64,000 bases of DNA from NCBI GenBank assembly GCA_051294375.1, contig CM119263.1, positions 19,268,625 through 19,332,624 on the forward strand, read 5' to 3'. This DNA comes from Paraspadella gotoi (Eukaryota > Animalia > Chaetognatha). The notes under the pieces are model-generated. The model did no database searches and was not told where the DNA came from. It saw nothing but the letters and a program-made list of their open reading frames with translations. Below, one piece after another: positions 3,507 to 23,716 of this stretch (position 1 is its first letter; the number at the start of each line of letters is the position of its first letter). Made by a program: the position numbers and the translations under genes.

Positions 3507-23716
<20,210 letters not shown>

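What the first reader, a model, noticed from the sequence alone, without database searches (positions are those of the whole stretch)
12001..12008. Twister P1 is replaced by a loopless palindrome, suggesting dimer-dependent cleavage
Seen: between the pseudoknot strand and the cleavage-site UAA the three families carry TGCCGGTA (12001-12008), GGCGCT (3147-3152) and CGGCCG (22449-22454). All are self-complementary (allowing G-U) and too short for a stable intramolecular hairpin. Established: minimal hammerheads of Penelope elements and animal retrozymes have palindromic stem-III loops and cleave efficiently as dimers. Inference: P1 could form between two ribozymes (LTR1 and LTR2 of one transcript), so only full-length RNA is processed. 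An alternative is a P1-independent mini-twister.
Basis: inference. Interest (0 to 1): 0.8.

Follow-up and report, generated by a model that had tools for sequence, protein, structure and literature searches.

The report
Loopless twister ribozymes in animal retroelements
Four different repeats in this animal DNA carry a twister-type self-cutting RNA fold whose first stem is shrunk to a 6-8-base self-complementary stretch, and one of them sits in both ends of a small tRNA-headed jumping element, which likely means that two copies pair up to cut, although cutting itself is untested.

Summary
Observation confirmed and extended. The three palindromes sit exactly between the T1 pseudoknot strand and UAA of type-P5 twister folds (family 3 is on the minus strand). 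I found a fourth, unlisted family (8119-8057, minus) with AGGCCT in the same slot. Known type-P5 twisters have a normal P1 hairpin there (Rfam consensus 8 bp plus loop; phage copies 17-18 nt). Self-complementarity in all four families is unlikely by chance (p about 0.002 by letter permutation). Family 1 is a 737-bp Helenus-type TRIM: tRNA-like A/B boxes, two 257-bp LTRs, PBS, PPT, 4-bp TSD, and many dispersed copies. Folding energies favour a strand-swapped double twister over two active monomers. Against strict dimer dependence: published twisters cut without P1; a family-1 subfamily breaks the outer pair; copy conservation has no statistical power; only family 1 is shown to have two LTRs; no RNA evidence. 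Best reading (0.55): pairing through P1 is needed for efficient cutting, which releases a 480-nt unit that would circularise. The combination (twister, animal LTR retrozyme, loopless P1) was not found in the papers searched.

The parts
11859..12115 (+). Family 1, LTR1 (257 bp, TGTGGC...GCCATA) of a non-coding TRIM
   Evidence: contigs leave the element with unlike flanks at 11858/11859 and 12115/12116 (table 7)
11855..11858 (+). Left 4-bp target-site duplication ACAT (right copy 12596-12599)
11915..11968 (+). tRNA-like Pol III promoter boxes: A box 11915-11926, B box 11958-11968 (function inferred)
   Evidence: ARAGORN calls no tRNA
11983..12062 (+). Type-P5 twister fold of LTR1: P5 11983-87/12058-62, P2 11992-95/12012-15, GA+T1 11996-12000, T2 12016-17, P3 12018-39, P4/L4 12040-55; predicted cut 12009/12010
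12001..12008 (+). Loopless self-complementary P1 linker TGCCGGTA (the finding)
12118..12131 (+). PBS-like TGG-starting tract, 2 nt after LTR1 (primer tRNA not identified)
   Evidence: sequence
12317..12335 (+). Purine-rich PPT-like tract before LTR2
   Evidence: sequence
12339..12595 (+). Family 1, LTR2 (2 differences from LTR1); twister 12463-12542, linker 12481-12488, predicted cut 12489/12490
19847..20103 (+). Family 1 solo LTR with TSD ATAT; 5 differences from LTR1, among them one in the linker (19994) and one in P4
3068..3201 (+). Family 2: tRNA-like head (B box 3121) and type-P5 twister 3131-3201; linker GGCGCT 3147-3152; predicted cut 3153/3154; ends of the element not defined
22381..22599 (-). 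Family 3: TG-starting 5' end at 22599, tRNA-like head (B box 22492), decayed type-P5 twister 22470-22394; linker CGGCCG 22454-22449; predicted cut 22448/22447; 3' end not defined
8057..8119 (-). Family 4 (new here): type-P5 twister with 8-bp P5, linker AGGCCT 8100-8095, T2 changed on both sides (AC/GT), minimal P3; predicted cut 8094/8093; no tRNA head recognised; element type unknown

Best explanation
These are circularly permuted (type-P5) twister folds in dispersed repeats, and their loopless palindromic P1 likely forms between two ribozymes, so that efficient cutting would need a pair. In the predicted strand-swapped dimer, each active site joins the 5' segment of one ribozyme (P5', P2', general-base G, T1 strand) with the 3' segment of the other (UAA, P2, T2, P3, P4/L4, P5), and the two palindromes make one shared 6-8-bp P1. 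For family 1 the inferred cycle runs as follows. Pol III starts at the tRNA-like promoter in LTR1 and meets no TTTT until just past LTR2. The two LTR twisters, or twisters of two transcripts, pair and cut at 12009/12010 and 12489/12490. This releases a 480-nt unit whose two ends are already paired in one twister fold, ready for ligation. The circle holds a single loopless twister and would resist re-cutting. A Gypsy-type helper would reverse-transcribe it from the PBS. Shown: anatomy, palindromes, repeat nature. Inferred: transcription, cleavage, dimer, circle, helper.
For: Four families with four different linkers are all self-complementary and of even length, while T1, T2, P2-P5 change between families and keep pairing. 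Family 4 was found after the hypothesis. cmscan aligns family 4 to Rfam Twister-P5 with three P1 pairs and zero loop bases; the model's consensus P1 is 8 bp plus a 4-nt loop. All 7 distinct phage type-P5 sequences from 175 viral loci have a 17-18-nt hairpin. Palindrome duplexes are -8.3 to -10.9 kcal/mol against +4.1 to +5.6 for hairpins. Swapped dimer minus two active monomers: -11.7 to -15.1 kcal/mol for the four families, -1.8 to -7.6 for six phage controls, -3.6 for the mutated solo LTR. The unconstrained co-fold of two family-1 cores is the swapped double twister. In the 699-nt transcript the cis-swapped pair is 6.7 kcal/mol below two monomer folds. Families 2-4 have a weak 3-bp bulged P2. 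In family 3 most copies differ from the window copy at 22408, 22409, 22460 (about 98% of depth) and 22466-22472 (84-95%), with letters that pair in T1, P2 and P5, and a 27-contig loose-end consensus keeps the linker. Precedent: a one-pair stem with a palindromic tetraloop in axolotl hammerheads, which cut far better in dimeric constructs (PMC7229834).
Against: P1 is dispensable in the env22 mini-twister (PMC5408937) and had no effect among type-P1 twisters (PMC11662667). A 6-8-nt linker can span the gap as a plain loop. In run X1 the linker's outer positions vary (12001: 4.2% of depth, 67 contigs; 12008: 2.4%, 48 contigs) and give an A-C mismatch, not a compensatory pair. Only 3 of 80 core positions vary at 1% or more, so the invariance of the central six has no power. 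Energies omit both pseudoknots. The free fold of the transcript is 11 kcal/mol below the swapped form. For families 2 and 4 the inactive monomer fold beats the swapped dimer by 4.7 and 7.9 kcal/mol, and the family-2 co-fold does not use the linker. Within GC-rich permutations families 2 and 3 are not exceptional (8 of 60 and 7 of 20 as low). LTR1's twister could fold alone before LTR2 is made. Families 3 and 4 share GGCC and may not be independent. Deleting a hairpin's loop leaves a palindrome automatically.
Confidence: 0.55

Rival explanations
1. Monomer-competent mini-twisters: each ribozyme cuts alone with P1 as a loop or a 1-2-bp cap. The palindrome is the relic of a hairpin that lost its loop and has no present function.
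For: P1 dispensable. The phage P1 begins CGGCC and ends GGCCG, and family 3's linker equals those outer pairs collapsed. A family-1 subfamily breaks the outer pair. Plant LTR retrozyme hammerheads cut from a single-ribozyme fragment (PMC4918200, passage).
Against: A functionless linker should drift, yet four families with different letters are all self-complementary (p about 0.002). One paper calls P1-less cleavage inefficient (PMC8501958).
Confidence: 0.2
2. The twister cuts as a monomer, and the exposed GC-rich palindrome is kept as an RNA dimerisation signal for packaging into the helper's particle, like the palindromes of Ty1.
For: Ty1 PAL1/PAL2 palindromes are needed for RNA dimer formation and mobility (PMC6844567, abstract). 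The linkers are GC-rich 6-8-mers with stable duplexes. This fits P1 dispensability.
Against: The palindrome sits exactly in the P1 register, abutting both T1 and the cut site, in all four families; a packaging signal need not. Family 4 shows no LTR features.
Confidence: 0.17
3. The folds are twister-derived but not active, or only some families are (decayed or repurposed structure).
For: No copy reaches an Rfam gathering score. Predicted minimum-energy folds of the monomers bury the cut site in alternative hairpins. No cleavage data.
Against: General-base G, UAA, T1, T2 and the L4 U and A are present in all four families with two-sided changes. Family-3 majority letters pair better than the window copy. 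The A-to-C change at the trans A-A pair in family 1 and P2 imperfections are tolerated (PMC11662667).
Confidence: 0.08

Closest known systems
Type-P5 twister ribozyme (Rfam RF02684)
   Same: Order of strands, GA-NNN, UAA, T1, T2, P4/L4, ends in P5.
   Different: P1 is a 6-8-nt loopless palindrome instead of an 8-bp hairpin; a bulged 3-bp P2 in three families; below the gathering score; located in animal repeats.
Helenus TRIMs (TRIMp3; Kojima 2024, PMC10886601; main text parts 1-4 of 6 read, supplement parts 1, 5, 7 of 11 read, whole supplement searched for six L4 motifs)
   Same: Under 1 kb, non-coding, two LTRs with tRNA-like A/B boxes, PBS, PPT, 4-bp TSD as in animal Helenus, solo LTRs.
   Different: The paper has 0 occurrences of 'twister'. 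In the parts read, the LTRs end shortly after the tRNA-like part, often with a T-rich tract, and I saw no twister; the motif search gave two unrelated hits. Here a twister follows the B box and the element has no TTTT.
Plant LTR retrozymes (Cervera et al. 2016, PMC4918200; passages)
   Same: Non-autonomous LTR element, ribozyme in each LTR, PBS, PPT, 4-bp TSD; unit between the cut sites proposed to circularise.
   Different: Type III hammerhead, plants, no promoter recognised (PMC7761336). That review says animal retrozymes lack LTR, PBS and PPT. Circles are shown there, not here.
Dimer-cleaving minimal type I hammerheads of amphibian retrozymes and Penelope-like elements (PMC7229834, PMC6765202; passages; Lunse et al. 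2017 not available)
   Same: A closing stem reduced to a palindrome next to the cut site, in tandem or terminal repeats.
   Different: Different ribozyme class. Hammerhead stem III is needed for catalysis, whereas twister P1 is reported dispensable, so the analogy does not transfer automatically.
Twister T-variants of Schistosoma Perere-3 (PMC8501958; passages and section 19)
   Same: Twister with altered P1 in an animal retrotransposon.
   Different: Type-P1 topology at the 5' end of a non-LTR element, with P1 completed by the insertion site; 'dimer' occurs 0 times.

Membership tests
Twister ribozyme, type P5 | Permuted order P5'-P2'-GA-T1'-P1-UAA-P2-T2-P3-P4/L4-P5 with complementary P2, P4, P5 | tested here: met
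   the family-3 window copy is imperfect, its family majority pairs
Twister ribozyme, type P5 | Both pseudoknots (T1 3 bp, T2 2 bp) and catalytic G and A | tested here: met
   T1 CGG/CCG, CGG/CCG, TGG/CCA, family 3 wobble in the window copy; T2 GC/GC and AC/GT
Twister ribozyme, type P5 | P1 closed as a hairpin | tested here: not met
   6-8 nt, hairpin +4.1 to +5.6 kcal/mol; zero loop in the Rfam alignment
Twister ribozyme, type P5 | Rfam gathering score | tested here: not met
   25.6 vs 37.6 bits for family 4; families 1-3 not matched to RF02684
Twister ribozyme, type P5 | Self-cleavage at U/A | not testable with these tools
   only contigs were available
Helenus TRIM (family 1) | Two LTRs, under about 1 kb, no coding capacity | tested here: met
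   737 bp, LTRs 257 bp with 2 differences; only short stop-to-stop frames overlap it
Helenus TRIM (family 1) | tRNA-like A box (TRGCY..YGG) and B box (GGTTC) in the LTR | tested here: met
Helenus TRIM (family 1) | PBS, PPT and 4-bp TSD | tested here: met
   two insertions with TSDs ACAT and ATAT; primer tRNA not identified
Helenus TRIM (families 2, 3, 4) | LTR structure with TSD | tested here: inconclusive
   family 3 has a sharp TG start; no TSD for families 2 and 3, only AT-rich chance-like candidates for family 4
LTR retrozyme | Self-cleaving ribozyme in each LTR | tested here: met
   fold at 11983-12062 and 12463-12542; activity untested
LTR retrozyme | Ribozyme is a type III hammerhead | tested here: not met
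   twister fold; no hammerhead match by Rfam
LTR retrozyme | Abundant linear and circular unit-length RNA | not testable with these tools
   no holder on record as RNA
Dimer-cleaving ribozymes | Cleavage faster in dimers, dependent on the palindrome | not testable with these tools
   energies only

The most novel reading that the evidence does not exclude
A natural obligate-dimer twister: two permuted twisters swap strands through a loopless P1, so only an RNA that spans both LTRs of a Pol III-driven animal TRIM is cut to unit length with its ends held for ligation, and the circle is immune to its own ribozyme. This would be the first dimer-acting twister and the first animal LTR retrozyme, and the same design would have been reached by two unrelated ribozyme classes.
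Probability: 0.3. Interest if true: 0.85.

Novelty: new variant of a known kind. Interest (0 to 1): 0.7.

Why it matters
Twister P1 is held to be dispensable, and dimer-dependent cutting has been described for hammerheads. A conserved loopless P1 in four families suggests that P1 matters in nature and gives a cheap, decisive test. Whatever the dimer result, family 1 joins two known element types (tRNA-headed Helenus TRIM and ribozyme-bearing LTR retrozyme) in an animal, where LTR retrozymes were said to be absent. It also suggests how a Pol III transcript without a terminator can get defined ends. Such twisters fall below Rfam thresholds, so they are probably under-annotated.

Tried and rejected
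No whole genome is held, so copies could be seen only through contig tables. No RNA holder was listed; runs X9 and X10 are only guessed to be RNA and were not used for expression. Type-P1 reading of family 1 (cmscan, 17.6 bits, pairing 12005-12008 with 12072-12075): rejected, because its P2 has two mismatches and it leaves no T1 partner, whereas the P5 reading pairs fully. First viral pattern was too loose: 1 of 120 loci passed the descriptor. Metagenome and prokaryote scans (stopped at 46 and 32 of 64 parts) gave 238 loci. Six matched the descriptor: five with P2 mismatches that look like chance, and one prophage-type twister with a normal 18-nt P1. These patterns required a 4-nt P2 and would miss families 2-4. 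A 3-nt-P2 viral scan gave 3 loci without P2/P4 pairing. The type-P3 scan gave 3 loci, of which two are type-P1 twisters. MAFFT misaligned family 1 against the others, so no covariance model was built. Twelve motif-type searches plus six more in the Naiad/Chlamys supplement (PMC8557442; line breaks can hide motifs; one search showed 12 passages of 31 occurrences) showed no twister. A weak B-box-like hit at 1928 (minus) has no twister behind it. Literature searches listed no paper on a dimeric twister or on a twister in an LTR; the library lacks most subscription papers, I did not read Roth et al. 2014 or its alignments, and bioRxiv supplements were closed. The host taxon was not determined beyond 'animal-type' (intron-containing Sos and PACRG genes).

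Full report
Setting. The window is eukaryotic DNA rich in AG microsatellites. Exons between about 4 and 23.7 kb encode a Sos-type Ras exchange factor (RasGEF_N, RasGEF and SOS1-type PH matches), and a PACRG gene lies near 26.5 kb. Families 1, 3 and 4 lie between Sos exons and family 2 just upstream of them. No whole genome is held, and I did not determine the taxon.

The observation. The three strings are at the stated places. Each lies between GA plus the three T1 bases and the UAA cut motif of a circularly permuted twister that starts and ends in P5. Family 1 reads CTGGC TTAA ATGT GACGG [TGCCGGTA] TAA ACAT GC, then a 7-bp P3, a 4-bp P4 around TCCGCAGC, and GCCAG. Family 3 is on the minus strand. 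It is a fourth family with an 8-bp P5, T1 TGG/CCA, T2 changed on both sides to AC/GT, and the linker AGGCCT; cmscan pairs AGG with CCU across zero loop bases. A descriptor that leaves the linker free returned 14 hits. Five of the top six are these four families, all self-complementary; the sixth is an AT-rich hit with a 29-nt linker. Eight shuffles scored at most 10, against 11-15. The joint chance of four self-complementary linkers is 0.0024 by letter permutation and 0.0015 for three distinct central tetramers under a GC-rich null. The four families may share ancestry, so these figures are rough.

The baseline. The Rfam type-P5 consensus has an 8-bp P1 with a 4-nt loop. Among 175 viral loci from three scans, 41 matches in 7 distinct sequences passed the descriptor, all of one phage family and all with a 17-18-nt P1 hairpin; four loci checked (three viral, one from the prokaryote scan) exceed the gathering score. 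Truncated scans of metagenomes and prokaryote genomes gave no short-linker twister among 238 loci, but those patterns could not see a 3-nt P2.

The elements. Family 1 is a 737-bp element: LTR1 11859-12115, LTR2 12339-12595 (2 differences), ACAT on both sides, a TGG-starting PBS-like tract and a purine tract. A solo LTR at 19847-20103 has ATAT on both sides. In DNA run X1, 2602 contigs lie on the stretch and leave it with unlike flanks at the LTR ends, so it is a dispersed high-copy family; the depth is not a copy number. Each LTR has tRNA-like A and B boxes upstream of the twister, and there is no TTTT from 11900 to 12603 (weak by itself). This meets the description of animal Helenus TRIMs (PMC10886601). 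That paper never mentions twisters, and I saw none in the three supplement parts read or in the motif search. Families 2 and 3 also have a B box shortly before the twister. Family 3 is high-copy (3354 contigs in X1) with a sharp TG start at 22599. Its window copy is decayed: most copies differ at 22408, 22409, 22460 and 22466-22472, and their letters pair in T1, P2 and P5. That pattern supports a selected twister fold. No second LTR or convincing TSD was found for families 2-4.

In X1 all 19 places varying at 1% or more are visible in the table. Three fall in the 80-nt core: 12001, 12008 and 12057. The first two are the outer pair of the palindrome, and a contig string shows them together as an A-C mismatch around an unchanged central six, whose duplex is still -8.9 kcal/mol. 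So the 8-nt palindrome is not strictly kept, the 6-nt one is, and the family is too uniform for that to count as selection. For family 3 no linker position is among the 40 rows shown of 62, and one loose-end consensus (27 contigs, agreement 0.67) keeps it while a P2 base varies. The evidence for selection therefore rests on the comparison between families.

Mechanism. The linkers cannot make stable hairpins (+4.1 to +5.6 kcal/mol) but make duplexes of -8.3 to -10.9. If two palindromes pair, the nested structure is a strand-swapped double twister. It lies 11.7-15.1 kcal/mol below two active monomers for the four families, against 1.8-7.6 for six phage controls and 3.6 for the mutated solo LTR. 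It is the unconstrained co-fold for family 1; family 4's co-fold also uses the palindrome, family 2's does not. In the two-LTR transcript the cis-swapped form is 6.7 kcal/mol below two monomer folds but 11 above the free fold. None of these figures include the pseudoknots. Monomer folds tend to bury the cut site in a local hairpin. By geometry, double cleavage in the swapped form releases the 480-nt unit with both ends paired in one twister fold, which suits ligation, and a circle with one loopless twister would be stable; this is inference, by analogy with retrozymes (PMC7229834, PMC7761336).

The case against. Twisters lacking P1 cut at almost wild-type rate (PMC5408937), and P1 features did not affect cleavage in a large test of type-P1 twisters (PMC11662667; permuted types were not tested). 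Another paper calls P1-less cleavage inefficient and reports effects of P1 composition (PMC8501958). A short linker is compatible with a monomer. A palindrome is what remains when a hairpin loses its loop. LTR retrotransposon RNAs also use palindromes to dimerise for packaging (PMC6844567, abstract). I put pairing-assisted cleavage at 0.55, of which the strict cis, full-length-only form is about 0.3; relic monomer 0.2; packaging signal 0.17; inactive 0.08.

Novelty. Nine literature searches listed no dimeric twister and no twister in an LTR (open-licence papers only). Reviews state that animal retrozymes lack LTR, PBS and PPT and that LTR retrozymes are mainly from plants and carry hammerheads (bioRxiv 10.64898/2026.07.22.740005, passages). 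Earlier AI notes of this scan describe type-P5 twisters with abnormal or palindromic P1 in Naiad elements of other genomes. They are unchecked leads, and my motif searches of the Naiad supplement did not show such a twister. They do suggest the motif is wider than this window and that family 4 could be a Penelope-like tail. Verdict: a real feature and a new variant of known kinds, with an attractive, directly testable but unproven dimer mechanism.

Noticed in passing
window 40.5-57.4 kb: A large inverted duplication (arms 89-100% complementary in pieces) centred near the N gap at 49372-49589, with another N gap at 40549; it looks like two haplotypes scaffolded head to head.
   Followed up: no
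window 2576-2635 +: CTGATGA ... CTGA around a short hairpin; resembles a C/D-box snoRNA (motifs recalled). Not matched by Rfam.
   Followed up: no
window 3141-3158, 22443-22463, 8089-8109: Families 2-4 share a P2 with three bases on the cut strand and four on the other (one bulge), unlike the 4-bp P2 of family 1 and of known twisters.
   Followed up: partly
window 2974-3228 +: Family 2 is bracketed by an 8-bp inverted repeat (AGTGACAG/CTGTCACT) without a matching TSD; this may mark its ends or another element.
   Followed up: partly
L121-L172 (most), L361: A gut-phage family of type-P5 twisters whose GACGG/TCCGAAGC core equals that of family 2 and whose P1 hairpin starts CGGCC and ends GGCCG.
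   Followed up: partly
L173, L175: Type-P1 twister matches below the gathering score (54-57 bits) in viral contigs.
   Followed up: no
window 12146 and 12132: Contigs show a second internal-region type branching off at 12146 in the same LTR family (20 contigs in X1).
   Followed up: no
window 7883-7968 and 31845-31927: Short imperfect inverted repeats of about 85 bp, possibly MITEs.
   Followed up: no
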